A stretch of 63,891 nt of DNA, filler included, from Chrysochromulina tobinii (lineage: Eukaryota), in assembly GCA_001275005.1 (NCBI GenBank). It is 8 parts of 8 records of this genome, joined end to end, with 100 filler letters (N's around TTAATTAATTAA, not from the genome) between each part and the next. Parts side by side here need not be neighbours in the genome. Positions count along the whole stretch, not along the records: positions 1 to 20,497 come from JWZX01000780.1; 7 more parts are not named here. One strand, written 5' to 3'. The notes beneath the pieces are model-generated. The model had not been told where the DNA came from and searched no databases. It was given only the letters and a program-made list of their open reading frames with translations. Shown here piece by piece: positions 1,700 to 56,400 of the stretch (positions within the stretch are counted from its first letter, which is position 1; every line of letters starts with the position of its first letter). The position numbers and the translations under genes are program-made.

Positions 1700-3329
1700 T
1701 CACCCCCCTTTCTCCCTGGGCGTGGTGCTGGCCCACACCTTCCCATACGGTGTGAGCTGCTGCACTTGCTCGGCGGTGAGGTAGCGCCCGTCGACGAGGG
1801 CCTTCGCCGGGTCACTCGCCACTAGATGTACCTTACCCATGGACTGACGGTCAATCAGTTTCGTCAGTACGTGATCGACGACCCAAGCTCCAATCGCGGG
1901 CGCTCCCATCACAAGGCACGCGCCGAGCAGCTGCGGATAGTGCGCCTTGCTCACTCTGGCCACCTCCGTCCAAAACGGGATCGCGCTGAAAAAGCGTAAC
2001 GGCTCAAACTCGCGCACTTCGTAAACCGCCAAGTGGCCGCGCGACGGGCAAGCTGAGCTGTCGACCTCCTGAACCACGACCTCCATCCATCGCAGGTAGC
2101 GCCTCACGATGTCGCGCTGCGAGACGCCTGTGGGGAAGGATGGGCGCCGTGGTGAGCACTTGCATGCAGGGCAGGATCCATCTTAGGTTCGATGTCGCGC
2201 TGCGACACGCCCTTGGCCAGCAGCTTGGGCACATCCAGCGCGCGAAGGTCGTAGAAGATCACCGGGCGGCCCTCGAGGTCGTGACAAAGGACTTGCATCG
2301 CATGTGGACCCATCGCGTGCTCCAGCGCCGCCTCGGCCGTTGGATCTGCCAGCTTGAGCGCGCCCGGGCGGAGGAGCTCATGGATCCCCTCTTCTTCGCG
2401 CCAGCGCGACGATGCCGCAAAGGCTACCGCGGCCTTGGCCACGTCGCCCTGGTGCTCTTTCAGATAGCGCGCGCCGCTGTGGGCGGAGGGCGGCTGGGCG
2501 CCGAGCTGGGCGCATGCCCCGCAGAGCTTTTCGAGGCTCTGCTCCTCTGGGGTCCTCGGGCTATCCTCGGGCGCCGTGTCCGGCGTCGTCACGAACCAGC
2601 TCGCATTCCTCCAGAGCCCGCCCGACTCCCCGCTGACCCCCTTGAAGCGCAAAGCATTGCGCGCGGCGGGCGCGAGCTCGTTCTCAACGTACCACCGGAT
2701 GCTGGGCCGCGCGAGCCCGATCCCGCCCGCGTCGACCTCCGTGTACACGCCGCCCTCCACCCTGTAGAGCACCCAGTTGCACAGGACGAGGCTCGCCACA
2801 TACTCGCGCGCCTTGCCCTCGTCCGTGTGCGTCGACGGCTCGAAGTTGTGGATGCCGTTCTCGGTGACGACGACGTAGCTCTCGGGCACAGGTGGGCTCA
2901 GGATTCGGAAGAGCTGGTCGAGCACGCCACGAAGCAGCGCCAGCTGGGTACGGCCCTCTGTCGCCTCCTTTGTGGCGAGCTCGTCTCAACACTACCTACC
3001 CGGATGCTCGGGCCGTCGCCGAGCCCGATCCCGCCCGCGTCGATCTCCGTGTACACGCCGCCCTCCACCCTGTAGAGCACCCAGTTGCAGCGGAGCCTGG
3101 CCACAAAGCCGCGCGCCTCGCCCTCGTCCGAGAGCTCCGACAGACCGGTCCCACGAGCGACATGCTCATGGGTCACAAAATTGTGGATGCCTTTCTCGGT
3201 GATGATGACGTAGCGCTGGTGCGGGCCGCCTCCGCCAAAGAGGCTCTTGAATAGATCCGGCACTAGCGAGACCGCTGGAACCGTGAAAGAGGCGTTCGGG
3301 ATGGATGGCATCTGGTCGAGAACCGTCAT
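1700..3329 (-). CDS. CRAL-TRIO/Sec14-like lipid-binding protein with two tandem N-terminal domains; one intron (2128-2210) and an apparent frameshift at ~2985-3000
   Basis: ARYLKEHQGDVAKA..WREEEGI (CRAL-TRIO N), DLEGRPVIFY, HYPQLLG..MGAP (C-terminal); duplicated domain CNWVLYRVEGGVYTE[IV]DAGGIGL; splicing the GC-AG intron joins ORFs 2104-2925 and 1700-2107 in frame. Confidence 0.75.
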
Positions 3330-3755
3330 TTTCAAGCGCCCTTGAACTTGGGCATTTTGCCGAAGCAGAACCCAAAACAGCAAACATTCCTAATTCACAA
3401 CACACCGACCTCAAAGGGTGAAGGGCGGCAACACCTCGCACTCACAGTCGCTTCATTCTCATTCCTTCACAGACAAGGGTTCACACTATTAATTATCTCG
3501 ATCCTTTTCGCCGCGAATCACAGATCGACAGACACGGCACGCACGCGCTACGTAGCCGACACTACTCTGACATGCACTTGCTGAGCGGACTGAAAGGACA
3601 CGGAAGGTCACGCGATATTTCGTTGCGTTGCGTACGTGCGCGCTGATTCCTGATTCGCACGTCATGATGCCAGCACGCAACGCGTCTCGATCGTGATTCG
3701 TGTGCCTTGATATCGGCTACTTATCATCATCATCTCTCCCTGCCTGAGGCCTCGT

Positions 3756-4954
3756 CTACACGCTGCTCATGCTGCTCGACGAGAACATGCCAAACCGGAA
3801 AGAGGCGCGCACCTCGAGCCAATCTCGTGCCGCGCACCGATCGTCGGCAACCATGCGCGTGATGCGGTCCTGCTTCGCATGCTCACGTGCCGCGTAGTCA
3901 CCCACGCGTCTCCACCGACGGAGCGGATCTGCCTTGAGCGCCTGCTGCACCTGATGAGGGAGGCAATCAGCATGCAATCAGTCTCCACCGACGGAGCGGA
4001 TCTGCCTTGAGCGCCTGCTGCACCTGATGAGGAAGGCAATCAGCATGCAATCAGTCTCCACCGACGGAGCGGATCTGCCTTGAGCGCCTGCTGCACCTGA
4101 TGAGGGAGGCACTCAGCGGCGCTTGAGAGACATGCTGAGGGCAGGTCCGAGGACGATTGAAACTCAGAGAGTAACAGTAGCCCATCGGGGGGGTAGCCCG
4201 ATCGGGGGGGAGGGGGTCGGCAGCTCGGGCAGCGCTGTACCTGATGCTGCCAGACGGACACATAGTCACCAGTGGCCGCTGAGAGCTCTGAAGGCTTTGG
4301 AGCGGCCGGCGCCAAGGGCGGCGTGGGCAGCAGGGGCGTCTCGCATCGCGGCATGCCAAAGGGCGTCGTGCCAAGCTCCAGTCGGGTGAGCGTCCGTGAC
4401 TTGATACTGCTCCCCCTCTTGTGTGCATCTGCCGCGGCCGAATGCGGCCGGCTGCGATCGTGGCTGTTGAGCATGTCGGGCAGGCTGGTAGTGCTCGCGC
4501 TCGAGGTGAGAACTCGGCCGACCCGGCTCACAGTACGCGTCTGTGTCGTTGGCGTGAGCAGCTCCGCCAGCGCCTTGCGGGTCTTGTCACTCGCCTTGTC
4601 GGGCGTCGTCGGTGGCGCGGCTCCCTGGTGGTTCTCCTTATTCTCCTTGTTGACCTTGCTCCGAGCCCGAATGATGGAGTCACTGCCCATCTCTACCGTC
4701 GTTGGCGTCACCCACGCATTGGGCAGAACTGGCGCGGACGCGGTGTGCGGCATCTGCGGTGTTGAAGCGAACTGGACGATCTTGGCCACGGAGGAGCTCG
4801 CGCCTGTCGGCGTGCTCGCAATGCATCGAACGCGCGCGATCGGCGTTGGCGCGCTGGCTAGGTTGCGGCTCGTTGGGATCCGCGCGACGACTGGGGCGAC
4901 TGGCAGTGAGTTCGGAGCCTCGCGCTCAGGCAGCACGAAGAATGGCGACTTCAT
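3756..4954 (-). CDS. Hypothetical Pro/Ser/Thr-rich protein, 2 exons (intron 3951-4240)
   Basis: ORF 4040-4954 joins via CAG|GTACAG...CCCTCATCAG|GTG to VQQALKADPLRRWRRVG..., stop 3756-3758; contains KEN motifs. Confidence 0.55.
3908..4110 (-). repeat. Three tandem 73-bp units = 3' splice site + first ~42 nt of exon 2
   Basis: Units start at 3908, 3981, 4054. Confidence 0.95.
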
Positions 4955-5220
4955 GAGAAGAGGGACGAGGAAAGATCTTCTTTTGAATTCGGCTTTCGCG
5001 ACTGCGAGTTTGAGAGCGTCCCGTGTTCCAGTTCACAGCCAATGGTCACACTGTCGCACGAGTGTAACGAGATTGTTGAGAGATGGGGGAGGGTGGCAGG
5101 TTAGCGACGGAATCAAAAATAGACACCGTTCACAGCCGATGGTTTGGACGAAAGGGCTGGGAGGCCGCCTCCCTCTTGACTGTCCCTACAGCCGGCATCA
5201 CGACCGACTCCGAGTCGACG

Positions 5221-8200
5221 ATGCTGCTGCGCGCGACCAGCACCCGCTCGGAGGATGTAACCCGGCCGCCGCTGGCGCAGCGCTATCGATCTTCACCTCT
5301 CGCCTCGCCAGAGATGCCCACGGGCATCACCAACATCATCTCCAACGAGGCTGCCGAGCGCTTCTCCTTTTACGGCATGAAGTGCATCCTCGTCGTGTTC
5401 ATGACCTCGCATCTTCGCGACGCGCAGAGGCAGCCGGCCTATCTGAGCGAGAAGGTCGCACTCGTCTACTACCACTCATTCACCAGTGCCGTGTACCTGA
5501 CCCCGCTCGGCGGAGCGCTGCTAGCCGAGGCGGTGCTCGGCAAGTACCGCACGGTCGTGTACCTGTCGCTCGTGTACTGCGGAGGGCACCTCGCTCTCGC
5601 AATCGACGAGACGCGCACCGGTGATGGCCGCTGGGCGCACACGTAGTTGATTGCGTCCGATGGCCACGGATGGCCGCTGATTGCGTCGCGATTGGCGCTG
5701 AGAGCCGCTGATTGCGTCTGATTGCCGCTGAGGGCGCCCTCGCTCGAGCAGGCCTCTTCGTCGGCCTCGCCCTCGTCGCCCTCGGCTCCGGCGGCATCAA
5801 GCCGTGCGTCAGCGCCGTGTTGGGCGACCAGTTCGGCGAACTCAACCAGCACTTGGTGAGCGTCGCCTTGATTGCACTTGATTGTGTACTGGTTTGCTCT
5901 GGATTACAGTGGATTGGTGAGCTCGGCCTTGGTTGAACATGGTTGCTCTCGATTGCACTTGATTGCCTCAGGTGAGCACGGCCTTTGGGTACTTCTATCT
6001 GGCCATCAATCTGGGCGCCTTCACCTCGACGTTACTCACACCCTACCTTCTCGAGCACGCGGGCTCGCATGCGGCCTTTGGCGTGCCAGGTGGTTGCACT
6101 TGATTGCACTCGTTTGCACTTGAGTGTACTTGACGTGGTAGTGCTCACCACGGCGCCCTCGCCCACACACAGGCATCGCCATGGCTCTCGCAACGCTCGC
6201 CTTCTGGAGCGGCCGTCACAAGTACAGACCTCTGATGACCTCTGATGACCTCTGATGGCATGCTGATTGCCATACCGCCGCCGTAGGTACACGCACGTGC
6301 CCCCGAATGCGAGCCGCTTCCTGATGACCTCTGATGACCTCCCTCATCAGGTACACGCACGTGCCCCCGAATGCGAGCCGCTTCCTGCGCAGCACTTGTA
6401 GCCCCGAGGGTGCCCGCGCGCTGTGCAAGCTGATCGGCTTGTTTGGCTTCTTCGCGGTGTATTGGAGCTTGTATGACCAAAGTGGCTCGGCGTGGGTGCT
6501 GCAGGTGAGCGTCTCGGATGGCCCCTGATGGCCTCTGATGGCCTCCCTCATCGCATGCATGTGAGCGGCTCGGAGTGCTTCTGATGGCCTCTGATGGCCT
6601 CTGATGGCCTCTGATGGCCTCCGATGGCCTCTGATGGCTTCTGATGGCCTCTGATGGCCTCTGATGATCACTGATGGCCTCTACTGGCAGGCAGAGAAGT
6701 TGGACAGAAGGTTCCTGGGTGTGGAATGGCTCCCCTCCCAAATCGGGGCGATCAATCCTCTCTTGATCCTCACACTCGTACCGCTCCTGCACGGCGCCGA
6801 CTTTGGCACCCCTCTCGGCGCCGTGTCGGGCGTGGGGCGCTCGGCGTTCTTCGCACGGCTCGGGCTCGTACCACGACGGCGCGTGCGGCTGGTAGGGCTC
6901 TACGAGCTCGTCGCCCGACACGGCGTTCGCGTTACGCCGCTGCGTAAGATCGGCTGCGGGCTCGTGCTCTGCGCGTGCTCGTTCCTGATCCCGCTGCAGG
7001 TGGAGGTTTGGATGGAGGCGAGCGGGTACAATCATAGCGCTGCAGCTCTGGCCGAGTGCAACGGCGCTGTTGGCGACGGCGGCGGCGGCGGTGCGCGTGG
7101 CTGTGGGCTCAGGCCCAGCATCGCATGGCAGGTGGTTGCCTTTGATCACGTGCCCACTGATTGCCCTTGATGAATACTGCTCAGTGAGGCCGAGCATCGC
7201 GCGGCAGCTCCTCGCTGATCTCGTGCCCCCTGATTGCCCTTGATGAATACTGCTCAGTGAGGCCGAGCATCGCGCGGCAGCTCCTCGCTGATCTCGTGCT
7301 CACGCTCGTTGATCTCGTCTCGATCTCGTCTGATCTCGTCTCGATCTCGTCTCGGTTTCGTCTGATCTCGTCTCGATCTCGTCTTGGTTTCGTCTGATCT
7401 CGTCTCGATCTCGTCTCGGTTTCGTCAGCTCGTCGCCTATTTCGTGCTCACTCTTTCGGAGGTGCTCGTCTCCGTCACTGGCCTCGAGTTCAGCTACACG
7501 CAGGCGCCACCGGCCATGAAGAGCATGGTGATGGCATTCTACCTCAGCGCGGTCGCCGCAGGCAATCTGGTCACCGTGGCCATCAATGCGAGCATCCTCA
7601 ACGCTGACGGCTCGAGCAGGTGAGTGCCGCTGCTTGCCGCTGATGGACTACGATGGCTTCTGATTGCTTCTGATAGCATCTCGAGTTCATCCCTGACTGC
7701 ATCTCTGATTGCCTCTGATGTGGCAGTTGGAGTGAGGTCGAGTACTATCGGTTCTTCACACTGATTGCTTCTGATTGCTTCTGATTGCTTCTGATTGCCT
7801 CCGATGTGGCAGTTGGAGTGAGGTCGAGTACTATCGGTTCTTTACACTGATTGCTTCTGATTGCCTCTGATGTGGCAGTTGGAGTGAGGTCGAGTACTAT
7901 CGGTTCTTTACACTGATTGCTTCTGATTGCTTCTGATTGCTTCTGATTGCCTCTGATGTGGCAGTTGGAGTGAGGTCGAGTACTATCGGTTCTTTACACT
8001 GATTGCTTCTGATTTACTTCTGATTGCTTCTGATTGCCTCTGATGTGGCAGTTGGAGTGAGGTCGAGTACTATCGGTTCTTTACACTGATTTCTTCTGAT
8101 TGCTTCTGATTGCCTCTGATGTGGCAGTTGGAGTGAGGTCGAGTACTATCGGTTCTTCACACTGATTGCTTCTGATTGCTTATGATTGCTTCTGATTGCT

Positions 8201-8560
8201 TCTGATTGCCTCTGATGTGGCAGTTGGAGTGAGGTCGAGTACTATCGGTTCTTCACGCTGCTCATGTTCGTCACCGCCGCCGCCTTCGTGCCGTACGCCG
8301 CGTGCTACAAGGAGAAGAGATACTTTCAAGGCCATGGGATGGACGAGATAGAGACGAGATCGGACGAGATGGAGACGAGAACAGACGAGATAGAGACGAG
8401 ATTTCAAGGCCATGGGACGGACGCGGACGCGGACGGTCCCGAGGCGGGGGCGGGGCCGCAGCCGACGTGGCGATCGTCGCAGCCGCTGCTGCCCGATGAG
8501 GTCAAGCTCGCGACGACTCGACCACGAGACGCTATAGTCGCTCGACACGAGACGCTTTAG
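5221..8560 (+). CDS. POT/PTR family proton-dependent oligopeptide transporter (multi-exon; start may be 5083)
   Basis: [12 protein letters not shown] (ExxERF), [41 protein letters not shown] motifs; introns ~5621-5751, 5856-5971, 6090-6172, 6222-6350, 6505-6690, 7132-7428, 7620-8223. Confidence 0.92.
7715..8260 (+). repeat. Seven copies of acceptor + exon start (GATGTGGCAG|TTGGAGTGAGGTCGAGTACTATCGGTTCTTYAC) separated by variable numbers of CTGATTGCTT decamers
   Basis: Direct reading; only the last copy (exon from 8224) continues into the ORF. Confidence 0.95.
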
Positions 8561-9186
8561 AGGGCTTTAAAGGCCGACTCGGTCTCGCGCGGGGTCGGAT
8601 CCGTTACGATTAGTACGACGTTAAAGCTACGACGTATGACGCGGGCGATACGCGGGCGAGGACGCGAGGTCAAGGCCGTATATTACATACTCTACCGCAC
8701 GGGTCTAGGCCGTCCGGTCTAGCCGACCGCGACGCGCGACCTGACCACGCGACGTCATACACGACGCGCGCGAGACGGGCCGAAGCGCGCGGCGACCGGC
8801 GTGGAGAGTTTCAGAGTAGCCCGAGCTGGAGTACCTGGTTAATATCATATTATGCGCGCCCCGGCGGCGGTCTTCTAGAGAGACGCGCCGGGCGGACCGG
8901 CACTTATAAATCGAATTCATCCCGACACCGTTAGGTCCCTTCTCTAGAAGAAAGCGCATTCAGCATTGTATGTGCATTGAACGCCATGGAGATTCATGTG
9001 TTTATGACACTTCGATCTCCCATCTGTGCGAGCCTTCGGACTTCGCTCACATGATCCTGATCGCCGGCGCGCTCGCCGTGGTTCGCGCGGCACGCCGCCA
9101 GACCCGAGACCGCAGAGGATCCGTATAGCCCGAAGTCCCGGACGAGATTCTACGAGATGCTCCCGAGATTCTTCGAATTTCGTCAG

Positions 9187-11115
9187 TCAGGTCGCCGAAT
9201 GCGGCGACACGCTGCCAGCATTGTCTCGCGCCGAGATCACGACCTCGCGGAGGGGGATCACGGCCTCCCCACTGGTGCTTCTCCCCCGAGCGTCGCTGGA
9301 CCTGCCCGGAGAGAGCGTCGTCCCGGGCGTTGGAGAGGGCCCCCCTCTTGAACGAGGCGAGAGGAGCGCGGCTCCGAGCCCAGTGCCGGAGCGTGTCATC
9401 TCGCGCTCGAGTGCCCACGACGGCGGCAGTGAGGCGGAGAGGCTAGGCGACGAGGTGACCTGATGAGGGAGCTCATCATGTACCATCAGAGGCGATCAGA
9501 GGCAATCAGATGCGATCAGAGGCCATCAGAGGCGTACTGAGGAGCGTTGGGAGGTGGCCAATTAGGGAGGCAATTAGGGAGGCGATCAGGGAGGCGTACT
9601 GAGGAGCGTTGGGAGGTGGCCAGCGTGGCCAGCGTGGCTACATGCATCTGGGACGAGATCAACGAGGGCGAGGTGCATCCGGGTCGAGATTGCATCTGGG
9701 ACGAGATCGACGATGGCGAGGTGAAGGATTCGGGTCCTCTGTTGAAGGCGAACTCGGAGCCAAGCTCCATCTCCGTCTCCAGCCGCGCGCGCTCGACGAT
9801 TGCAGCTGATGAGAGAGGCAGTTGGGGAAGCAATTAGGGAGGCCATCAGGGAGGCAATTAGGGAGGCAATTAGGGAGGCAATCATCTCCGTCTCCAGCCG
9901 CGCGATATCGACGATTGCAGCAGCAGCGAGATGCGAGCACATCCCGACAGAGGCCATCCGAGGCCATCCGCGGCCATCCGAGGCCATCCGAGGCCATCCG
10001 AGGCCATCCGCGGCCATCCGAGGCCATCCGAGGCACTCACCAGCGCGGATCTCATTATTAGGGAGGCAATTAGGGAGGCAACTAGGGAGGCACTCACCAG
10101 CGCGGATCTCCCGCTCGCGCGCCACTCGATGGCACAGCCCCGCATTCTCGGCCTGCAGCCGCGAGAGCTCGTGCTGCAGAGTTTCGTTACCCTTGCGCTG
10201 CTCTTCACACTCTCTCCGATAACGCTCCTGCTGCTCGCCCAGCCGATCGATCTCGCGCGTGAGGTGCGAGACGAGGAGATGCGTTCGCGCCGCCTCCTCG
10301 TCCGCCGCCGCGACGGTGCGCCCACGACGGCGCTCCTCGTCCGCGGCTGCCGAGGCCGTCGCCGCCGACGGCGACGCGCCGGCTGGCGGCGCCGTGTACT
10401 CGCACACGTGGGGTGGTGGCGGCAGGTCCTCCGCGGGGGCCATCCCCGCCGCCGCCGTCACCGCCGCCCCCATCCCCGCCGCTCCGCCGCCGCCGCCGAG
10501 GCGGCTGTCTGCGGCGGCGGCATCGGCGGCGTGGCCAGTCCAGCGCTGCAGGTGCCCCTGGATGCTCTGCAGGATCGACGACGTGTTCTCGCGCAATCTC
10601 GTCTCAAGGGCGCGCTTCTCATCGAGGACGGCGCCGAGCTGCTTCTGCAGCTTGTTCACGATGTACTCCTGCTCCTGCTCGAGCTGGATCTCAAGGTGGA
10701 CCTTCTCTTCCTTGACCTTCTGGAGCTTCTTGGTCAGCGCATTCGTGATCATCTCCTCCTCCACCTCCACCTGCCGCGCGAGCTCCTCCTTCTCCTGCTG
10801 GAGCGCCTCGAGCCTCTTCATGAGTTTGTTGGTGATGTACTCCTCCTCCTGCTCGGCCTGGACCTGCAACTGCCCCTGCAGCTGCGTCTGACGGTCGAGC
10901 TGCACCTGCAGCCGCGCTCGAGCTGATTTCTCGCGCTCGAGCTGAAGGAGCGCGCTCTGCAGCGCCTGCTGAAGCTCAGGCACAGACGCGAGCGCCAAAG
11001 GCACCGAAGCGAGGCTATCGGTCTCGGAGGCGGAGTCGGGCGCCTCTGACGGCACGGCAGACGACTCCGACGTGACCCGTTGCACAAGGTCAGGACGAGA
11101 CTCAGGCGTCGACAT
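9187..11115 (-). CDS. CCDC6/H4-like coiled-coil protein (DUF2046), introns 9806-10097 and 9460-9599
   Basis: AEQEEEYITNKLMKRL..EEEMITNALTKKL..LEQEQEYIVNKLQKQL repeats typical of CCDC6; splicing keeps the frame to the stop at 9187. Confidence 0.8.
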
Positions 11116-11291
11116 CGTTCCAAGCAGCGTGCGTGCGTGGGTGTCGCGGCAAGACGCGCAGAAGTAACTCGACTTTTTGCCCGAGGTGCTCGCCTTTACT
11201 GTAGAACATGCGAAATGTTATTTTTTCCGTGGGCGCGGACCACCAACTCAAGGCGGTAGCGCGGTGTTTGTTCACAGACGCGCACTGCACC

Positions 11292-13880
11292 ATGCGGACG
11301 CATATGCTTCTAGCTCTGCTCACATTGCGTGCCGCCTCGGGCTTCTACCTGCCTGGCGTGGCGCCTCGCGAGTACCTGGATGGAGAGAAGGTCGAGGTTA
11401 AGGTCAACAAGCTCACATCTACCGTCACGCAGGTGCGCTCTGCCCACGGCCAGCGCCTTCGCCATGGCCGGCGCTCTGGCCTGCTATCGACGCGTACGCC
11501 TGCACCCGCCCTGAACAGCTGCCGTACGACTACTATAAGCTTGCCTTTTGCAAGCCCAAGGAGCTCATCAACGCGGTCGAGAACCTCGGCGAGGTCCTTC
11601 ACGGCTCGGTGATCCAGAACTCGCCGTATCAGCTCTTTGCGCAGAAGCAAGACTTCAAGGTGCTCTGCAAACAGGATCTGGACGCGAAGCAGGTGGCCGA
11701 GTTTGGGAAGCGGATTGGCGAGGAGTACCGCGTGCAGCTCATCATGGACAACCTGCCCGCGGCCACGCGCATGATCTCCGAGCTGCCCAATGGAAAGACG
11801 GTCTACATGTACGACCGTGGCTACAGGTTGGGCTTCATGGGAGCCAAGGAGTTTCCTGGCACGATCCCAAAGACGCCGTACCTGAACAACCACCTGCGCT
11901 TCATCATCAAGTACCACAAGGACGCCAAGTTCGAAGGCGCGCGCCTCGTCGGCTTCGAGGTCGAGGCCTTCTCCGTGAAGCACACCTACAAAGGCAAGTG
12001 GGGCGTGGACGCGAGCCTCACCTCGGTGCCTCTGTCGCCGGACCTGCCACCCCAGCCGATCGTGGAGGCGGGCGAGTACATCTTCACGTACGACGTGCAG
12101 TGGGAGGAGTCACCTATCCGGTGCGACTCGCGATGATCGCGCCTAGACCTCCCCACATGGGTGATTGCCTCTCTCATTCTCTCATTGCATGCTGATTGCG
12201 TGGGGTAGGAGTCACTCGTCCGGTGCGCCTGATTGCCTCTTCTCATTGCATGCTGATTGCGTCGGATTGCGCTGCATGCAGGTGGGCTTCGCGCTGGGAC
12301 CTCTACCTCTACATGGGTGACGACCAGATCCACTGGTTTTCGATCCTCAACTCGCTCGCCATCGTGCTGCTGCTCACGGGTACGCGCTTCGGCTCGGATG
12401 GCCTCTGATGGCCTCAGATAGGTTCTGAGTGGCTCTGAGTGGCTCTGAGTGGCTCTGAGTGGCTCTGAGTGGCTCTGAGTGGCTCTGAGTGGCTCTGAGT
12501 GCGTTTCCATTTTCCGCCCTCATCAGGCATCGTGGCGATGATCATGATGCGCACGCTGCGGCGCGACCTCAACCGTTACAACTCGGTCGAGGAGAAGGAG
12601 GAGTTGGCAGACGAGAGTGGCTGGAAGCTCGTACATGGCGATGTGCTGCGCCCGCCGCCGCTGCCCCTGCTTCTCTCGTCGTCGGTGGGGACTGGCATGC
12701 AATTGCTCTTTATGGCCATCATCTCGATCTTCTGCGCGATGCTCGGTTTCCTCTCTCCCGCCAACCGCGGCGGCCTTCTCACTGCGACGCTGCTGCTCTT
12801 CGTGTTGATGGGCGTGCCTGCGGGCTACTACGGCTCGCTCCTCTACAAGTCCATCAAGGGCTCGCAGTGGAAGTCGTTGACCGCTTCGACCGCCCTCCTG
12901 TACCCAGGCGTCATCTTCCTCCTCTTCTTCTGCCTCAACCTCTTCATATGGGGCTGCGGCTCGTCTGCCGCTGTGCCCTTCACCACCATGCTTGCCCTGA
13001 TCTGCATGTGGTTCTGCATCTCCGTCCCCCTCGTCTTTCTCGGCGCGTTCTTCGGCTTCCAGACGACCCTGCCCGAGCCGCCGGTGCGCACACGATCGAG
13101 ATCGCACGCCAAGGACTGCCGCATGCAAGTGCTCACCACGGCGCCATCTCTTCCCCACAGGTGCGCACGAACGAGATCGCACGCCATGTACCGCTGCAGG
13201 CGTGGTACATGGGGTTGCCGTGCACGATGGCGGTGGGCGGCATCTTGCCGTTCGGCGCCGTGTTCATTGAGCTCTTCTTCATCATGAGCTCTGTCTGGCT
13301 GCAGCGCTTCTACTACGTCTTCGGCTTCCTCGCGCTTGTGATCTTCATCCTGCTGCTCACGTGCGCCGAGATCTCGATAGTCCTCTGCTACTTCCAGCTC
13401 TGCAACGAGGATTATCACTGGTGGTGGCGCTCCTTCCTAAACTCGGGCGCGGCAGGCGGCTACTTGCTTGGCTACTCCGCCATCTACTTCCATACACAGC
13501 TTGACATGGTCGGTTTCACACCGACGCTCCTCTACTTTGGGTGTGAACGCCCCCCGTGTGCTGTGGAAGATTGCCTTTGGGTCTCCCCCGCGTGCCTCTC
13601 TGATAGCCCCGATCACCTCCCTCCTCAGGCACACGTTGATTGCCACTGATTACCACTGATTGCCACTGATTGCCACTGAGTGCCACTGATTGCACCCCTC
13701 CTCAGGCACATGTTGATTGCCACTGATTCCACTGATTGCCACTGATTGCCACGGATTGCACCCCTCCTCAGGTACATGTTGATCGCCGCCATCATCTTCG
13801 CGCTGATGACGGGTACAGTTGGTTTCATGGCCGCGTGGTGGTTCGTGTGGAAGATCTTCTCGGCCGTTAAGGTCGACTAG
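11292..13880 (+). CDS. TM9SF: Transmembrane 9 superfamily (EMP70/nonaspanin) protein
   Basis: Signal peptide then [61 protein letters not shown]-terminal KVD; introns 11433-11518, 12122-12282, 12380-12526, 13084-13160, 13541-13771. Confidence 0.95.
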
Positions 13881-15195
13881 GACCGACACGAGCCCAAGCA
13901 GAGGCAGCTCTCTCGATTAGGAAACCGGAGGCCCTCTCCCGCTCGCAATAGCCTCGCCTAGCGCCGTGAGGCCTTGCGTGGAGCGTGCATGCAAGTGCTC
14001 ACCCCGGCGCCTCTCCTAGCGCCGTGAGGCCTTGCGTGGAGCGTCCCGCGGGGCGCTGTCTGTGTTGCGGTGTCGCGGCTTGCATCTCGGAGATCGCACC
14101 TCGGAGATCGCATCTCGTGTGCCCCAATCGTCGGAGATCGCATCTCGTGCGCCCCAGTCGAGCCGCCGTCGTGTATCACACCGCGGCGCCTGCAACGTAC
14201 TCACTGTGCTCTCACACAGCGACGCTCACCCCCACGCCCCACAGTGCCTCGCCGTCGACCGGGCGCGCGACGCACTGACCACGCTGTGTCCTACTAATGC
14301 TGACACTGCGCACCACTCGGCGGGCGTGTCGGCTGTCGCGACGGTGTCGCGCCGGTGTTCGGTGGAATACGATCCGATCGCAACGTCCCCGGGCGCTCGC
14401 GGAGACGCGTGGGGCACGGGCGGGAGCCGGTCCGCGACTACTTAGTTCGTCATCATAGTATTAGACTCTTGACGATGTGACCACATAACCTCGAGGGCGC
14501 GGGCGAGGTGCTGGGGACAGACAGACGAGAGTGAGTGTCCGGTCTTAGATGAAACAGAGACGGCGGAAACGGAGCGTCGGAGCCCCAGCCCGGGCCGAGC
14601 CCGAGGCACAGACCGCCTCCGGATGGCGCTCGGCGGGCCGGACCCGCGGCGCTCGCCGGATAGCCGTTATGATTACTAAGCGACACCGTCTCCGCAGCGG
14701 TCTGACACTGTGCGCTCCTATGACACGCCGCACGAGGTCGAGGACCGGACAACGTTTCAAACAAGCATGTTTCAAGCATGTGGGTGACTGAGTGCGCGTG
14801 CCCGCGCAACCGGAACCGCTCTCCTGCTTCCATTATGGCTGTTCCTGCTACGCCACTTCAAGCACGATTGTACCATTGTACGATTGTAGTTTGTACGAAC
14901 GGGCGCAGAGCGTACTCCGAAGTTCCACGTTCCACCGTCGGTGCGGAGTATATGGACTTTGGATGGACCGTGTGGCAGTTGCGCGCCGTCGTGGACAGCC
15001 GGACACGGCGATCCGCCGGCGCGCCGACCCGAGCGCGCGCCGTCGTGGACAGCCGGACACGGCGATCCGCCGGCGCGCCTCGACCCGAGCGCGGTCTACC
15101 CTCGGCCCTCTAGAGATGAGGTGTCGCACTTCAGTGCCTCTGTGCTCCGCAGAGTGATGCATGGCGTGCCATAGGATTGTCGACGTGCCCGCGCT

Positions 15196-15933
15196 CTAGT
15201 CCCGTCCATCCGTGCCAAAGTAGCGGTCGCCAAAATCGCCCAACCCCGGCACGATGTAACTTTTGCTGTTGAGAATTGGGTCGATGGCCCCAGTGACGAT
15301 CTTGACCTGCGGGTACTTGTTGTGTATGGCGGCAATGCCCTCGCGCACGCACACGATGTTCACAAAGATGATATTTTCTGGGCGCACCCCTTTTTCAACC
15401 AAGCACTCGATAGCCTTGACCGCTGAGCCTCCCGTCGCGAGCATCGGGTCGAGGAGCAGCACCTGGCGCATGGCGACATCCGGCGGCAGCTTGGAGTACA
15501 TGAGCGTCGGCAGCGCAGTCTCCTCGTCGCGCTGGATGAGGATCTTGCCCACGGCCACAGATGGCATCATCACTCGCACCTCGCCCAGCATGCAGTCGGC
15601 CGCACGTAGGATGGAGACCGCACACAGGGACGACTCGGCGGGCAGGCGCATGCCCTCGTACGGGCCGCATGGCGTTTCGACGAGGACGGCCTTCGACGGT
15701 AGCAACGCCATCGCCTCTTCGATGAGCAGGTGCGTGAGCCTATTCGAGGCAATCACAAACTGTGAGCGCGGCGCCGTCTTGTCACGCATGAGCGTCTGCA
15801 GCGAGCGCGTGAGCGGTGTGTCCTTGAGCACCGTGACGTGGTGAAGGTTTTCGCACATGGAGCTGGCCGACGCGAAGGCGCCCGCGGCCGTCGCCGCGGC
15901 ACCGCCCGCTGCAAGCATCAGCCGACGCTTCAT
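15196..15933 (-). CDS. UPRT: Uracil phosphoribosyltransferase
   Basis: VSILRAA, GKILIQRDEET, LLLDPMLATGGS (PRPP site), YIVPGLGDFGDRYFGT. Confidence 0.95.
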   Translation of the reverse strand: MKRRLMLAAGGAAATAAGAFASASSMCENLHHVTVLKDTPLTRSLQTLMRDKTAPRSQFVIASNRLTHLLIEEAMALLPSKAVLVETPCGPYEGMRLPAESSLCAVSILRAADCMLGEVRVMMPSVAVGKILIQRDEETALPTLMYSKLPPDVAMRQVLLLDPMLATGGSAVKAIECLVEKGVRPENIIFVNIVCVREGIAAIHNKYPQVKIVTGAIDPILNSKSYIVPGLGDFGDRYFGTDGRD

Positions 15934-16080
15934 GGCCGTCGGGCCCCGAACTTCGCGAGTTTGGTCATTGGTTGGTCTTGAGTGGAGAGTGGAAGCCCAC
16001 CCCGTCCCGTCCCTAGGTCTCCATGTTCTGTACATGAGCTACGAAATTGGACAACTGTTCCCCGCCGTATCGGGCGGCGC

Positions 16081-16744
16081 ATGGCCACGCTGAGCGCGGC
16101 CGACCTTGGGCGCCGCGTCCAGGTCACTACCTCGGATGGCGAGGCGAGCGAGGGCACCGTCTTCGCTGTCGAGGATGGCGTCGTCGTGCTCGAGTCGTTC
16201 TGCTGGCCCAGCAATCCAGAGATCACCCGTGCAAACTACAGCGTGCTGACGGCGGCCTCGATCACAAAGGTTGCTGAGGTGGCAGCGGTGCCGTCGGGCG
16301 CCGCCGCCCAGGAGCGTTCGTTGCCGGCCGTGGATTCAGCGTATCTGCAGGCACGCGAGGCACGGGCCGTCACGCGCGCCGAAGAGGAGGCCACCAAAAT
16401 CAACCCGAAGGCGACGGCGCGTTTCCAGGCTGTCTTCGACATGCTGTCGAAGACCATGCCTTGCACGTGGGGCACCAACCCGCAAGATGGCGGCCCTGCC
16501 ATCATGATCCTCGAGGCGGTGAGCAGCCCTCGAGATGTGTGCAGCGCTCCCCCTTGTCGAAGCATGGCCTGACTGGGTGGTGTTGTGTGCGCCGTCGCAG
16601 GTCATCATCACCGCCGCTCTCAACCCCGACAAGCTAGTCGCGAAAGCGGGGGAGGAGCGCCTGAAGGAGCGCGTCCGCAAGGTGCTCTCCGGCGTCATCG
16701 CCAAGCTCGAGAGCGATCCTCGGATGAAGTCATCCATTGGCTAA
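16081..16744 (+). CDS. LSM12-like protein (N-terminal LSm fold + anticodon-binding AD domain), intron 16519-16600
   Basis: GRRVQVTTSDGEASEGTVFA; ARFQAVFDMLSKTMPCTW; ERVRKVL; head-to-head with UPRT across ~150 bp. Confidence 0.75.
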
Positions 16745-16935
16745 GGAGACACCTGTGAGTGGATGCGAAAGCGATATAGCGGATGGGGCGTCGCGGGTTC
16801 GTTCGCTCGTCTCGTCTGCAGCCCGCTAACAACGGCTGATACGTGAGTATTTTTAACGATGAACGAACTTCATGACGCAGCCCCACACGTCTCGCTTACA
16901 CATGCGTTCGCACCTAAGCGTGTCCCCGAGGTCTT

Positions 16936-17262
16936 TCATTCACCGCGCTTGCCCTTGATGAAGTCGCTGCGACGCTGGCGAGACTTGTTGATGAGATTGA
17001 CCGACGAGGGCAGCTGGGCTTCGTCGCCGATAACGTCGCCGAGGGAAGCGTTGAGCAGCAGCGTGAGCACCAAGAGCGCGAGGGCGATGCCCACCACGAT
17101 CCGGTCGTCTGGAAGCGCGTTTGCGGCAGCCGCGGCGGACGCGTCGGCTGCGAAGGCGGCGGGCTGCAGCGCAAAGGCTGCCGTACCCGAGGCTGCGGCG
17201 AAGCGGGCCACACTCGCCGGTGACAGCAGCGAGGGCCGCAGAAGCTGTGGGATGCCGAGCAT
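16936..17262 (-). CDS. Small single-TM hypothetical protein, possibly organelle-targeted
   Basis: Ala-rich N-region, hydrophobic IVVGIALALLVLTLLLNASL, short C-tail; start uncertain. Confidence 0.45.
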   Translation of the reverse strand: MLGIPQLLRPSLLSPASVARFAAASGTAAFALQPAAFAADASAAAAANALPDDRIVVGIALALLVLTLLLNASLGDVIGDEAQLPSSVNLINKSRQRRSDFIKGKRGE

Positions 17263-17461
17263 CGGAGAAAAAAAAGATCGGGACCGCTGGGGTGTGAACC
17301 AAATCGCACATTTTTGCACAAGACGCAGCGACCGAGGCCGTCGCAAGCGGATGCCGCCTTGCTTTTTCGCCAAATGTTCTTCTGTGAACTCTTGATCGCG
17401 GCTGTGCCGAAGCTTTGCTGTGCTTTGCAAGTGTTCTGCCCTCGCCGCCTGACCGCGCGCG

Positions 17462-34000: not shown

Positions 34001-34180
34001 CAAGCATGGAATGATGGTACTGCCCTACCTTGGAATGTGTACGTGTGGTTCAATTGCATGACTGGGATATGGACCCGATCTGTCGTTGGTTTCTGCTCTC
34101 CTAATATCTATGCCTGTCCTGGGCCTTACCCAACGGGAACCGTGATTGGAGTTCCTGTGTGGAGTTCATGCCCGGACAGT
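31085..34180 (+). CDS. Secreted kexin/furin-like subtilase (S8 + P-domain) with Pro-rich linkers and Cys-rich modules (3'-truncated)
   Basis: Signal MARFVLVLLLC; triad IVDDG, SHGT, GTSYACPVVSG; oxyanion SGN; P-domain HSSRGDLQLELTSPSGT; CDDGG...GTDCNDCGPR module. Confidence 0.9.
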
Positions 34181-46695: not shown

Positions 46696-49158
46696 TCACT
46701 TCTGGCTACTCTCTAAACTGTTACTATCCGGATACATGGCCCCCTTCATGAGCGAAAGCCCGTCAATAACGCCAAAGTCGGCATCGGTGGCCGCGCGCAC
46801 GCTCGCGAGATCGACGCCAGATGCAATCTCGCGCAGCGTGAGGCCGGAGCCGTCGGGTGCGACGTCGAAGACGCCGAGTTCGGTGATGAGCATCGACACG
46901 CAGCGTGCGCCGGTGAGGGGCAACGTGCAGTGGCGGAGCACCTTCGAACGCCCTCTCTTGTCGCAGTGCTCCATCGTGACGATCACCTTGGCGGGAGAGG
47001 AGACGAGATCCATCGCGCCGCCCATGCCTTTGACGAGCTTGCCAGGGATAAGGTAGTTGGCCATGTCGCCGTTAGCAGCGACCTGCGCCCGAGCCGAGGG
47101 TGGTCGCAATCAGAGGCGCAATCTGAGGCGCAATCAGAGTCGCAATCAGAGGCGCAATCAGAGGCGCAATCAGACCTGCGCCCGAGCCGAGGGTGGTGAC
47201 GTCGCAGGAGCAATCAGTCTCAATCAGAGGCGCAATCAGAGGCGCAATCAGAGGCGCAATCAGACCTGCATCGAGCCGAGGATGGTCACGTCGCAGTGGC
47301 AATCAGTCGCAATCAGAGGCGCAATCAGCGGCGCAATCAGACCTGCATCGAGCCGAGGATGGTCACGTCGCAGGAGCAATCAGTCGCAATCAGAGGCGCA
47401 ATCAGAGGCGCAATCATGGGCTATCAGAGTCCATCAAGCCTGAGCCCGAGCTGAGGTTGGGCCTCATCAGGCGCAATCAGTCGCAATCAGAGGCGCAATC
47501 AGAGGCGCAATCAGACCTGCATCGAGCCGAGGATGGTCACGTCGCAGTGGCCGCCGCGGATCATTCCAAAAGAGGCATCCGCGCTGAAGTACGAAGCGCC
47601 GGGCAGTGCAGTCACCTGAGTAGGGACGTACTCCGATACACTCAGCCGCAATCAGCCGCAATCAGCCGCAATCAGTCGCACTCAGCCACCATCAGATGCA
47701 ATCAGCCGCCATCAGAGGCACTCAGCTCACCGTCTGCTTGCCCGCGTTGATCAGATCGGCATCCTCTTGCCCCCTTGTGGGGAAAGGGCCGACGCCGAGC
47801 ATCCCGTTCTCGCTCTGCAACGTGATCGAGACGCCTTCGGGAATGAAGTTGCTCACCTGATGAGGGAAGCCATCATAGGTCATCAGAGGTCATCGGAGGT
47901 CATCGGAGGTCATCAGAGGTCATCAGAGGTCATCAGAGGTCATCAGAGGTCATCAGAGGTCATCAGAGGTCATCAGGCGCTCACGAGGGTCGGCAGCCCG
48001 ATGCCCAGGTTGACGTAATCTCCGTCAGCGAGCTCGAGCGCCGCGCGCCGAGCAATCCGCTCTCGGTCCGGCGTCATGGCGTCCCCTTCGGTCCGTTCAC
48101 CGGCGAGGGTGAGGCGCTCGATACAACGCTCGGACGGTCCCTGCACAATCCGCTCGACGAAGAGGCGCCATCAGCGGGCGCAATCAGATGGCGTAATCAG
48201 CCGGCGCAATCAGCCGGCGCCATCAGCGGCGCCATCAGCGGGCGCCATCAGAGGGCGCAATCAGTGAGGTGCAATCAGAGGGCGCCATCACCTGCACGAT
48301 CCGGTCGACGAAGATCCCCGGCGTGTGGATGTCGTTTGGGTCGAGCGTCCCCGCGGGCACGAGCTCCTCCACCTGCCTCGAGGAGGCAATTAGTGGCAAT
48401 CAGAGGCAATTAGTGGCAATCAGAGGCAATTAGAGGCAATCAGGAGCGGGCACGAGCTCCTCCACCTCCGCGATGGTGATCTTGCCCGCCGTCGCCACCG
48501 CCGGGTTGTGATTACGCGAGGTCATGCGATAGATAAGGTTGCCCTCGGTGTCGCCCTTCCACGCGCGCACGAGGGCAAAGTCGCCAGGCAGCGCCCGCTC
48601 CATGATGTACTCCTTACCCTCGAAGAGCTGCGACGCGCGTGGCGTCGAGCCCTTGATGACCTTGCCCGAGCCATCGGATGCGTATCGAACTGGCATGTTG
48701 CCGTGATGAACGAGGGTTCCGACACCGGTGGCGGTGAAGAAGGCCGGGATGCCCGCGCCGGCCGCGCGCATCCGCTCGGCCAGCGTGCCCATCGGCACCA
48801 GCTCGACATCGATCTCGCCGCTCAGGAATTGCTTCTCGAAGAGAGCGTTCTCGCCCACGTACGAGCCGATCATCTTGGAGATCTGCTTGCCCTGGAAGAG
48901 CAGGCCGAGGCCACGCTCGCTCGTGCCCACATTGGAGCTCACCACCGTCAGGTCGCCCACACCCTTCTTTTGCAGCGCAGCGATCAGGTTCTCAGGCACG
49001 CCCGTAAGGCCGAAGCCGCCGACGAGCAGCGTCGCGCCCGACGGCACGTCGGCGACGGCATCGGCGGCCGACGCGAAGACCTTGCCGCCGACCGGCACCG
49101 TCGACGAGCGATGCCGTCGCGCTGCGGCCAACGTCGTCATCAAGGCGCGACGCACCAT
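46696..49158 (-). CDS. OXCT1: Succinyl-CoA:3-oxoacid CoA transferase (fused A+B), mitochondrial-type presequence, 5 introns
   Basis: [52 protein letters not shown] (catalytic Glu), [10 protein letters not shown]. Confidence 0.95.
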
Positions 49159-53400: not shown

Positions 53401-56400
53401 GGAGCCGTTGCCACCTCGATTAAGCCAAGCCTTGACAGACAATCATGTGATGTTGAATCAGCTCGACCTGGGCGTGATCGATTGGATGGTAGCCTCGTAC
53501 AAGAAATGCGAATCCGATCAGGAGCGTGATTTTGTGCTCAAGATTATTCTGCAGACCCTCGTCCATGGGTGGCCCCAGTCTTCCAAGCAGGCGGACTGTG
53601 GACGTTACAAGTACTGGAACAGACTGGCACTCGTGCCGAGGAGTCGGCAAGCATTGCAAGCAGCGCTACGGGAGTACTCCGTTAACTACAAACGAGAGTT
53701 ACAAACGAGAGTCTCCGATTACACAGAATTCCTTCATAGTGCGGATAACCAATTCTACCAACAGGTGGAAGCGTGGGCACGGGAGGATGCCATCCTACGC
53801 GAGGCCAAGGAGAAGCAACGGCAGGCGCTCGAGGAGAAGAAGCAGGCCGAAATCAAGGAGCGGGAGGAACGCAGGAAGGCGGTTGAAGCGAGGCAGGCGA
53901 AAGGGAATGTTTCGTCAAGGCTCGAGGACGCTAACCCGGGGAAGAAGAAACCCTGGAGTGTGGATGAATTGGGTTCGGAGCTCTTCCGCCTTGCATTCGA
54001 GGGCGGAGATACGCGACAGCTCGAGCCCCTTCTCAACAAGGTCAGCAACCTGAGCCTCAAGAAGCGGACCAAGGTGCGCGAGTGGGTCGACGATTCGGGT
54101 GCGACGCCGCTGTATGCGGCCGCGTACAACGGCAACGTCGACGCACTCAAGCTGCTCCTACGTGCGCAGTTTGCGCCCGACATGTTCCACACCAAAGATG
54201 GCGTGACGCCCCTCTACGCGGCGTGTGACCGTGGTCATCTGGCGACGGTGAAGGAGCTCGTCAAGGGGCGTGCGGACCCGATGCTCAGCATGCGGGACAC
54301 CGCCTTCACCCCCTTGACCATTGCCGAGACCATCGCCGAGACCAAGGGGACGAAGAGTGTGCACCAGTCGATCGTGGAGCTGCTGCGTGCACACGTGAAC
54401 TCGCCGCAGGTGCTTACGGCAGCGCCGACCAAAAGCTCCGCTGTGCCGACCATGAAGACCCTCACGAAGCTTTTCGAGGACGAGGGTGAGGAGGGGGTCA
54501 AGAACAAGAAGCAACTCGAGGAACTGAAGTTGCAACTCGAGCAAGTCGGGAAGAACAAGAAGCAACTCGAGCAACTCGGGAAGAACAAGTTTGAGAAACA
54601 AAGGGCTTGGGGAGGAGGAGGAGTGATCGAGGAGGAGGGGGAGGAGGGGGAGGAGGGGGAGGAAGCGGAGGGCAGGAAGGAGGGGGAGAACAGGGAGGAC
54701 AGGGAGGACAGAGAGGAGGGGGAGGGCAGGGAGGAGGGTGGTTTCTTCACAAGCGTCGAAACACGTTCGAATGGAAAGGAGGGGGAGGAGCAGCAGCCAG
54801 AGGAGAGCCACTTTCATGTGGAGCAGCAGAGCATCGGGGAGGCAGAGCGTGAGGTGGAGCGAGTCGCTCATCGTCCGGCCTTGAGCTCGGGATTGAGCTC
54901 GGGATTGAGCTCAGCCACGCTCGACAGTGCGACCGTGCGTCCGGCCGAGTCCTTCGACTCCCTCATCACGGCCCTTCACTCTAGTGCCTCAAGCTCTGAT
55001 GTGTTGCGTGCTGCTCTGAAGCAGCTCGACTGTGTCGACGAGGACAGCCTCGATGACGCTCGCAAGAGGCGCTGGCGTGAGGCTCTGAGTTGGGGCCAAG
55101 AGCACCTCGACCACCTGACGATGAAGGAGGCCACCTCGCTCTACGCCCTGGAATGCGAGCTGCCTGTCGACCTTGGACCGAAAAGCTGCTTCTCGGCCCA
55201 CACCATTCTCGTGGTGGACAATAGCGCCTCGATGCGGCAGGTCGATGTGCACACGGGCACCGCTGAGGGCGACATCTCACGGACAGAGGCGGCTAAGCGG
55301 CTACTCACGACACACTTCCTCAAGACGCAGATCGATGCGGGCGCGCAGGCGCACGAGCGCGTGTCGCTGATCAAGATCCAGAGGGGTTCGACGAGGCCCC
55401 CGTTTGCCCTCTTCCCGCTCGATCATAGCCTCGCTGACCGCATCCTGCGCGCCATCGACGAGCCTCGAGGGCATGGCGACTACCTGCCCGCACTCGAGCT
55501 GCTCGCCAAGCTGGTGGAGCTCACAGCCCCTTTCATGAAGGAGAGCGCCAAGACGTCAATCCTCTTCTTCTCCGACGGCAAGCCCTCCGATCACATCGAT
55601 GAGCGCGTGCTGCCCGCGCACCTACGGCAGGCGCTGTCGGAGCTGCACAAGGCAGTGCAGCGGAGCGGCAGTTACATCGAGCAGTTCTCGCTCCTTGGCT
55701 TTGGCGAGGCCGATGAGGCGATGCTGCGCATGATGGCAGAGGCGTACCCCGCGCGCGTGGCTGAGTACCGCGCCGTGAGCGGGCCAGAGGGGTACAAGGC
55801 GCTTGAGACGGCCGTGACCACCTTTGCCTCGTCTGTGGCGGTCTCTCGCCTCTCGTCGGTCTCAGTGACCTTGGACAAGAAGCAGCGTGCGTTGCGTCGC
55901 GTCGACCGCTCCCTGGGCGAGCGCTTCTACCGTTACGAGGACTGCAAGGTGCTGCTCCCGCCAGAGAGGCTAATTCACCTCCATGATTGCCTCTGATATA
56001 CCCGAACGACTCTGATAGCCTCTGATGACCTCTGGTGGCCTATTGATCGCATCCCTCATCAGGTGCTGCTCCCGCCAGAGAGGCTCGGGGACTTTAACTC
56101 GGATCTGCTCAGGCTGCCTGAAGGGCACACCCTTCTGATCTCGTCCAAGCTACTTGGCCACGGCGGCGAGCGCAACGCGTTCGTAGCCTTCTTCCTGTCC
56201 AAGAACAGCTTCACCACTGAAGATGAGGAGTGGGTGGTCAAGGAGAGTCGACACGAGCGCGCGGAGCACGAAGATGACGACTTTCATCGCAAGGCGCTCG
56301 TCACGCAGCATGCGGCGCACATGCTCGCGAAGCGCTTCAACGACGATGCCGAGGCTCTCGAGATAGACGGCCTTCCGAGCGTCTCGTACATGAACCACTG

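What the first reader, a model, noticed from the sequence alone, without database searches (positions are those of the whole stretch)
7132..7428. Intron contains two copies of its own spliced exon-exon junction
AGGCCgAGCATCGCgcGGCAG|CTCcTCGC at 7187-7215 and 7260-7288 matches the upstream exon end (AGGCCCAGCATCGCATGGCAG) fused directly to the downstream exon start (CTCGTCGC). It is either a fossil of the pre-intron allele or a copy from spliced mRNA/cDNA. Both readings are informative about mechanism. A weaker case lies at ~9920 (GCTG|CTGCAATC).
Basis: partly seen in the sequence, partly recalled or inferred. Interest (0 to 1): 0.78.

Follow-up and report, generated by a model that had tools for sequence, protein, structure and literature searches.

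The report
Junction copy left by stacked duplications
An intron in an algal peptide-transporter gene contains a worn copy of the sequence that its own splicing joins together, most likely left by two local DNA duplications of the kind that has copied neighbouring exon sequence into about half of this alga's introns, so a copy made from messenger RNA is probably not needed to explain it.

Summary
The match is real. Intron 6 (7132-7428) of a Chrysochromulina POT peptide-transporter gene holds a copy of its spliced junction (39 of 48 bases; two-sided score 13.5/13.5, null maximum 4.5 in 400 permutations). The splice site rests on protein homology, not on RNA reads. 'Two copies' is one copy plus a young 73-nt tandem duplication: one of three informative wild loci and three protein records carry a single unit. 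The copy is old (19% from the exon; alleles differ 0.3-1%) and does not follow an exon variant. Fifteen of 28 hand-called introns here contain copies of flanking exon; four begin with a 20-26-nt copy of the next exon's start and one ends with a 23-nt copy of the previous exon's end. One event of each kind, stacked, gives an internal junction copy with no RNA step; about one such case is expected among 28, one is seen. An mRNA template is not excluded (about 10%), because a sister lineage has an intron at this position. The scan noted repeat-flanked introns before in this genome (e1-2577349). New variant of known intron gain by duplication; interest 0.5.

The parts
5221..8561 (+). POT/PTR peptide transporter gene, 8 exons (5221-5620, 5752-5855, 5972-6089, 6173-6221, 6351-6504, 6691-7131, 7429-7619, 8224-8561), 598 aa
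   Evidence: open frame; PF00854 homologs; first 422 aa identical to the named record KOO35702.1 of Chrysochromulina tobinii (P0132)
7111..7131 (+). end of exon 6 (A), source of the upstream half of the junction copy
   Evidence: (family D6)
7132..7428 (+). intron 6, GT-AG, phase 0 between Q and L; 297 nt here, 233 nt in L002 and L003, 160 nt in L004
7143..7157 (+). 15-mer near the intron start that matches the copied exon-7 start at 13 of 15; likely a third partial copy and the homology at which the 73-nt duplication arose
   Evidence: 0 of 4249 15-mers in the other 27 introns reach 13 of 15; the breakpoint role is inference
7143..7288 (+). two head-to-tail 73-nt units (7143-7215, 7216-7288), 97% identical; one unit in some wild alleles
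7187..7226 (+). junction copy 1 (truncated twin within the duplicated unit)
   Evidence: scores 13.5 and 9.0
7260..7307 (+). junction copy 2: 21-nt copy of exon-6 end ending in CAG (likely the former acceptor) plus 27-nt copy of exon-7 start; 9 differences, 5 at third, 4 at first, 0 at second codon positions
7311..7428 (+). 11-mer array (GATCTCGTCTC, 10.8 copies) ending in the acceptor CAG; 64 nt shorter in L002-L004
7429..7455 (+). start of exon 7 (B), source of the downstream half of the junction copy
   Evidence: (family D5)
48141..48291 (-). comparison: CoA-transferase-like gene intron that ends with a 23-nt copy (21 of 23) of the upstream exon end (model for step 1)
   Evidence: retention gives stops
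55949..56062 (+). comparison: intron that starts with a perfect 23-nt copy of the downstream exon start, then a 10-mer array and acceptor (model for step 2)
   Evidence: retention gives a stop
48373..48465 (-). comparison: intron starting with a perfect 20-nt copy of the downstream exon start
2128..2210 (-). comparison: likely GC-AG intron starting with a 21-nt copy (20 of 21) of the downstream exon start; shares a cassette with 13084-13160
13084..13160 (+). comparison: TM9SF-like gene intron starting with an about 26-nt copy of the downstream exon start plus the shared cassette

Best explanation
The intron contains a real but decayed copy of its spliced junction, and that copy is most likely the by-product of stacked local DNA duplications with repeat-array filler, with no RNA template needed. 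Step 1 (inferred): filler beginning with GT was inserted behind the CAG of the Gln codon with duplication of the last 21 or more exon bases, so the filler gave the donor and the duplicate's CAG the acceptor; the duplicate then stood directly before exon 7, as in the intron-less gene. Step 2 (inferred): the first 27 bases of exon 7 were duplicated around an 11-mer array ending in CAG, which became the new, more distal acceptor and left old acceptor plus copied exon start inside the intron; in three wild loci this addition is 84 nt, in frame and stop-free (shown). Step 3 (shown as a length polymorphism): a 73-nt tandem duplication doubled the copy in some alleles. The enzyme is unknown; staggered-break repair with templated filler is my first guess, target-primed insertion of a short RNA the second.
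For: Both single-step products exist in this window: intron ending in a 23-nt copy of the upstream exon (48141-48291) and introns starting with 20-26-nt copies of the downstream exon (55949, 48373, 2128, 13084), whose retention would break the frame or give stops; ungapped start matches of score 10 or more occur in 3 of 28 introns and 0 of 756 permutations. 15 of 28 introns hold a flank copy of score 10 or more against about 1% per side in the null. The process is active: 86-nt allele-specific insertion of exon-end copy plus 11-mer array in intron 7 of L002 and L003, and 0, 1 or 6 extra boundary units in intron 7. The product of the two one-sided frequencies predicts 0.6-1.3 two-sided copies among 28 introns; one is seen (rough, frequencies chosen by me from the same survey). 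The copy is old: 9 of 48 differences against 0.3-1.0% exon SNPs among alleles; identical in L002-L004; the S-to-N exon change of L004 is not in its copy. Five of nine differences are synonymous third positions, as expected if the exon drifted under selection and the copy decayed (expected about 4.5 of 9); the copy keeps L where three of the four closest homologs have L and the exon has V.
Against: No intron-less or step-1-only allele was found: 0 of 33 close protein records that reach this point read through the junction, so no intermediate is observed. The 13-of-15 match near the intron start is not explained by steps 1-2 and would fit a single duplication spanning the junction with a donor made by mutation, so the order of events is open. 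Six of the 33 records, from a sister lineage at about 84% identity, have an intron at the same position with another start, so the intron may be older than the copy. No second-position change among 4 non-third changes is slightly more coding-like than neutral decay predicts (about 1 in 16). Introns were called by hand, mostly without RNA joints; the wild records are not independent samples.
Confidence: 0.75

Rival explanations
1. A piece of spliced mRNA or cDNA of this gene served as repair template and was written into an already existing intron.
For: The copy is precise at the junction and in sense orientation. The intron position is shared with a sister lineage whose intron starts differently (6 of 33 records). 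Shared cassettes occur in unrelated genes, so some templating in trans exists (L046).
Against: Only 1 of 28 introns has a clear two-sided copy, the number expected from DNA events alone. The copy covers one junction only, lies 50-150 nt from its source, is invariant among alleles and ignores a current exon variant. One-sided copies that cannot come from spliced mRNA, since they include intron sequence, are common.
Confidence: 0.1
2. The copy came by ectopic DNA conversion from an intron-less paralog or a divergent intron-less allele.
For: Seven of nine differences are synonymous or give residues common in homologs, none is at a second position. Uninterrupted close homologs exist on long contigs (P0123, 579 aa, 10731 bp; P0124, 537 aa, 7460 bp), if these are single-ORF calls.
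Against: The same pattern follows from exon drift plus neutral decay; two changes hit nearly invariant W and Y. No paralog close enough was found (best non-self hits 76% identity over exon 7). Whether P0123 and P0124 are genomic single ORFs could not be checked.
Confidence: 0.1
3. The copy is kept for a function, as an alternative acceptor giving a protein 28 residues longer or as a splicing decoy.
For: In L002-L004 the stretch from the copy's CAG to the true acceptor is 84 nt, in frame and stop-free; the C. parva gene model P0142 uses that CAG; the copy is invariant in three wild loci.
Against: In the window allele the stretch is 148 nt, out of frame, with a stop; the extra residues would interrupt a conserved hydrophobic stretch that none of 119 homologs interrupts; unit number varies; alleles are under 1% apart, so invariance over 48 nt is expected. 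No Rfam match.
Confidence: 0.05

Closest known systems
Intron gain by tandem genomic duplication (Rogers model; reviewed in PMC3443670, passages read)
   Same: An exonic segment is duplicated in place and splicing between the copies restores the coding sequence exactly.
   Different: The classic case needs AGGT in the duplicated segment and no foreign filler. Here the junction is AG|CT, one splice site likely comes from an inserted repeat array, and two events are stacked.
Introners that recruit one splice site from the target-site duplication (Polarella classes 4/5, 6/8/10, 12; bioRxiv 10.1101/2020.10.14.339549, passages read; Chrysochromulina sp. family with 4-bp TSD, PMC9860276, passages read)
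   Same: One site carried by the insert, the other co-opted from duplicated exon; recurring inserts in unrelated genes; one orientation.
   Different: The passages seen give fixed TSDs of 3-8 nt; here the duplications are 20-43 nt and vary, no terminal inverted repeat was found at intron 6, and the inserts are 10-12-mer arrays of differing unit.
Amphioxus 'mirage' minisatellites (PMC3087553, passages read)
   Same: Tandem duplications spanning 5' or 3' exon-intron boundaries, unstable in copy number between haplotypes, proposed as a source of new introns.
   Different: Mirages as described copy one boundary of an existing intron; here exon end and exon start are joined in one copy, and the units carry branch-point-like arrays.
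Intron gain in double-strand-break repair with short direct repeats (Daphnia; as reviewed in PMC3443670) and direct repeats near splice sites (PMC11782384, abstract only)
   Same: Direct repeats flanking inserted filler.
   Different: Repeats here are longer than the mean of 11.4 bp in that abstract and sit exactly at the splice site; the filler recurs as families.

Membership tests
Tandem-duplication intron gain (Rogers) | Intron contains duplicated flanking exon sequence | tested here: met
Tandem-duplication intron gain (Rogers) | Duplicated segment holds AG|GT, used as donor in one copy and acceptor in the other | tested here: not met
   Spliced junction is CAG|CTC; both exon 7 and its copy start CT
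Tandem-duplication intron gain (Rogers) | Position absent in outgroups | tested here: inconclusive
   Shared with a sister lineage; more distant homologs are uninterrupted on long contigs, but their gene-calling mode is unknown
Introner (DNA-transposon type) | Family of sequence-similar introns at unrelated sites | tested here: inconclusive
   Met for two cassettes in other introns (17-mer core in 5 of 28 introns; CCTCATCAG in 7 of 28 in sense); intron 6 has neither, and no genome was available to count its own filler
Introner (DNA-transposon type) | Short TSD of fixed length | tested here: not met
   Duplications of 20, 21, 23, 23, about 26, 37 and 43 nt
Introner (DNA-transposon type) | Terminal inverted repeats | tested here: not met
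   No inverted repeat of 12 nt or more with arms at the ends of intron 6; many introners also lack them
Introner (DNA-transposon type) | Presence/absence polymorphism or an autonomous partner | not testable with these tools
   No genome held; all close records that reach the site carry the intron
Mirage minisatellites | Tandem units spanning an exon-intron boundary with variable copy number | tested here: met
   Met for intron 7 (0, 1, 6 extra units); the 73-nt unit of intron 6 varies 1 versus 2 but spans a former boundary
Mirage minisatellites | Regular splicing is undisturbed | not tested
   No RNA joints obtained for this gene
RNA-templated (cDNA) insertion | Copy crosses a spliced junction precisely | tested here: met
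RNA-templated (cDNA) insertion | Intron older than the copy, or copy crossing two junctions | tested here: inconclusive
   One junction only; DNA of the sister lineage could not be fetched

The most novel reading that the evidence does not exclude
Chrysochromulina writes RNA back into its own genes: a target-primed or RNA-templated repair process inserts branch-point arrays with long, variable duplications to make new introns, and this junction copy is a stretch of spliced mRNA written into its own intron.
Probability: 0.1. Interest if true: 0.85.

Novelty: new variant of a known kind. Interest (0 to 1): 0.5.

Why it matters
The junction copy itself is probably debris. The setting matters more: a freshwater haptophyte with public genomes and many wild haplotypes in which precise intron gain by long (20-43 nt), variable duplication plus repeat-array filler seems frequent and still active. 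That makes the open question of how new spliceosomal introns arise testable by population genomics, and junction copies give a direct test of DNA versus RNA templating (one-sided versus two-sided frequencies, ancient versus young introns). Practical point: both public gene models seen go wrong at this intron (P0132 stops 12 residues into it; P0142 splices to the copy), so annotation in this group is likely affected widely.

Tried and rejected
No whole genome is held, so there is no genome-wide survey. RNA and DNA contigs laid on 3400-20200 were swamped by the repeat arrays: 15 joints listed, 431 not shown, none for intron 6; direct RNA support for this splice stays open. Of 45 loci, five are near-identical (L001 is 100% and possibly the window's own strain, so not independent; L005 ends before the unit); the 40 distant ones (27-61% identity) were not examined. 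Searches for more cassette loci: 1 hit in viral contigs (L046), 0 in prokaryote genomes, 0, and 15 hits of an 18-mer in prokaryote genomes that I take as chance and did not use. DNA of the sister lineage was not found in viral contigs. Rfam: no match. The case at 3951-4240 (scores 6 and 43) is rejected as a junction copy because the exon happens to end in the acceptor motif CATCAG. 27437-27505 is counted among the 28 but may not be an intron (retention is in frame and stop-free). Left out of the survey: uncertain gene structures at about 28900-31000 and a possible coding duplication near 58865. Replitrons considered and dropped: nothing in the passages read links them to introns. Paper searches showed no paper describing long variable duplications or junction copies in haptophyte introns; the library lacks most subscription journals; the 2013 Emiliania genome paper was not held (I recall, unverified, that it reports 10-11-bp repeats in introns); PMC2784329 passages had nothing on this; PMC12130899 has no whole-word mention of Chrysochromulina. 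Supplements, including the introner family tables, were not read and may list these families.

Full report
What the locus is. The stretch 5221-8561 is an eight-exon POT/PTR peptide-transporter gene giving a 598-aa open frame. Its first 422 residues are identical to a named record of Chrysochromulina tobinii (P0132), so the window belongs to the freshwater haptophyte C. tobinii/parva group. The finding is intron 6, 7132-7428, GT-AG, phase 0. The splice sites rest on homology: in 119 homologs aligned on the downstream motif, W stands in 117 and Y in 115 at the spacing that this splice gives. I have no RNA joint for it: the contigs laid were swamped by repeats (15 joints shown, 431 not). Both public gene models seen differ from mine here, one ending 12 residues into the intron, one splicing from a later GT to the copy's CAG; neither fits the homologs.

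The observation. The two strings are there. Copy 2 matches 21 bases of exon 6 end plus 27 of exon 7 start at 39 of 48. In a survey of 28 introns that I called by hand, this is the only one with a clear two-sided match: 13.5 and 13.5, against a null maximum of 4.5 for the smaller side in 400 of 756 permutations.

Why two copies. They are one 73-nt unit repeated 2.2 times at 95-97% identity. Of the wild loci that span the region, L002 and L003 have two units and L004 one; protein records P0155, P0178 and P0179 also read through one unit. Collapse in assembly could mimic this, but L004 is a distinct haplotype elsewhere too. So there is one old copy and one young duplication.

Age and decay. Alleles differ from the window at 3 of 1090, 9 of 936, 7 of 1121 and 8 of 1263 exon bases, whereas the copy differs from the junction at 9 of 48; the 48-nt copy is identical in L002, L003 and L004, and the S-to-N change in exon 6 of L004 is absent from its copy. 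Five differences are synonymous third positions, four are first positions, none second. Equal time on a selected exon and a neutral copy predicts about half at third positions (inference), which fits. Two first-position changes destroy the nearly invariant W and Y, so the copy is not coding now; one gives L where three of the four closest homologs have L and the exon has V, as a fossil of an older exon state would.

The genomic habit that explains it. Fifteen of 28 introns hold a copy of flanking exon scoring 10 or more, against about 1% per side by permutation. Four introns whose retention would shift the frame or give stops begin with a 20-26-nt copy of the next exon's start, so the donor comes from the duplicate and the acceptor from inserted filler (55949-56062, 48373-48465, 2128-2210, 13084-13160); a fifth candidate (27437-27505) may not be an intron. 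One intron ends with a 23-nt copy of the previous exon's end (48141-48291). Fillers are arrays of 10-12-mers; CTGAT occurs 141 times in sense and its complement 3 times in these introns, 29 per kb against 1.2 per kb outside, and two cassettes recur in unrelated genes (also L046). The process is active: L002 and L003 carry an 86-nt insertion of array plus exon-end copy in intron 7, and the 3' boundary unit of intron 7 varies from no extra copy to six.

Mechanism. Shown: the anatomy, the polymorphisms, the single-step analogues. Inferred: step 1, an exon-end duplication with GT-bearing filler makes the intron, leaving duplicate and exon 7 adjacent as in the intron-less gene; step 2, an exon-start duplication with an 11-mer array and a new CAG moves the acceptor downstream and traps the old boundary inside; in L002-L004 this addition is 84 nt, in frame and stop-free, which would have softened its cost; step 3, the 73-nt duplication. 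Multiplying one-sided frequencies from the same survey gives 0.6-1.3 expected two-sided copies among 28, a rough figure; one is seen. The order is uncertain: a 13-of-15 match between the intron start and the copied exon start (0 of 4249 in other introns) suggests a third partial copy and would fit one duplication across the junction with a donor made by mutation. Either order is DNA-level. The enzyme is unknown; staggered-break repair with templated filler is my first guess, target-primed insertion the second (own knowledge, not tested).

Results against this reading. No intermediate allele was seen: none of 33 close protein records that reach the site reads through; 27 have the window's intron start and 6, from a sister lineage at about 84% identity, have another start at the same position (these come from cluster lists showing 15 of 35, 15 of 20 and 10 of 10 members). 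The intron may therefore predate the copy, which an mRNA template would require; parallel gain or step 1 in the common ancestor fits equally. More distant homologs run uninterrupted on 7-11-kb contigs, which hints at a young intron only if these are single-ORF calls, which I could not check. I put the RNA template at 0.1, an ectopic paralog at 0.1 and a functional role at 0.05.

Relation to what is known. It works like intron gain by tandem duplication (PMC3443670, passages) but lacks the AGGT; like introners that recruit a site from the target duplication (bioRxiv 10.1101/2020.10.14.339549, passages; PMC9860276, passages) but with long, variable duplications in place of fixed 3-8-nt ones; and like amphioxus mirages (PMC3087553, passages), a lead taken from an earlier scan note. 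Nine paper searches showed no description of this in haptophytes; the library is incomplete and supplements were not read. An earlier scan note on another piece of this genome reports a 15-bp repeat-flanked intron and a family of such introns; it agrees with my survey but is unchecked and is no independent evidence.

Verdict. Real feature, best read as debris of an active duplication-plus-filler process of intron gain and extension; new variant of a known kind; interest 0.5, carried mainly by the system around it.

Noticed in passing
window 55949-56062 (+), 48373-48465 (-), 2128-2210 (-), 13084-13160 (+): Introns that begin with a 20-26-nt copy of the next exon's start and would be spliced precisely; cleaner evidence for intron gain by long duplication than the finding itself.
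   Followed up: yes
window 13958-14045: The 17-mer cassette core sits in the 3' untranslated region of the TM9SF-like gene between direct repeats of about 29 nt.
   Followed up: partly
window 7620-8223; L002 1300-1490; L003; L004: Intron 7 differs strongly among alleles: 0, 1 or 6 extra 3' boundary units, and an 86-nt insertion of array plus exon-end copy that lacks the six bases before the GT.
   Followed up: partly
window 3951-4240 (-), 6222-6350 (+): Duplications that start exactly at an exon start beginning with GT, each followed by array and acceptor: possible stacked or recursively spliced introns with zero-length exons.
   Followed up: no
protein records P0167, P0174, P0187: In the sister lineage the exon-7 frame starts ten codons later behind an apparent acceptor, suggesting a further intron 33 nt downstream of intron 6 that the window lacks.
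   Followed up: no
protein records P0123 and P0187: Both list a longest contig of 10731 bp; if it is one contig, an uninterrupted paralog would lie beside the intron-bearing gene. Could be coincidence.
   Followed up: no
window 8340-8402, 9640-9720 (-), 58840-58910: Duplication-plus-filler structures and 11-mer arrays that stay in frame inside coding sequence, so the same process may also lengthen proteins.
   Followed up: no
window 47083-47516 (-): Intron with at least four internal copies of the exon end plus intron start, in two diverged versions; the acceptor comes from the diverged version.
   Followed up: partly
window 20498, 26022, 34181, 38294, 40335, 50246, 62665: Runs of N with a TTAATTAATTAA spacer: the window is a concatenation of contigs, so gene neighbourhoods across these points mean nothing.
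   Followed up: no
L046 1375-1550: A contig in the viral collection shows the same duplication, 10-mer array and cassette, so it is likely haptophyte host DNA or a host-derived stretch.
   Followed up: partly
window 2640-3120: A diverged direct duplication of about 130 nt beside the CRAL-TRIO-like gene; and, at 31360-31700 and 33810-34180, two related cysteine-rich domains flanking a subtilase-like frame.
   Followed up: no
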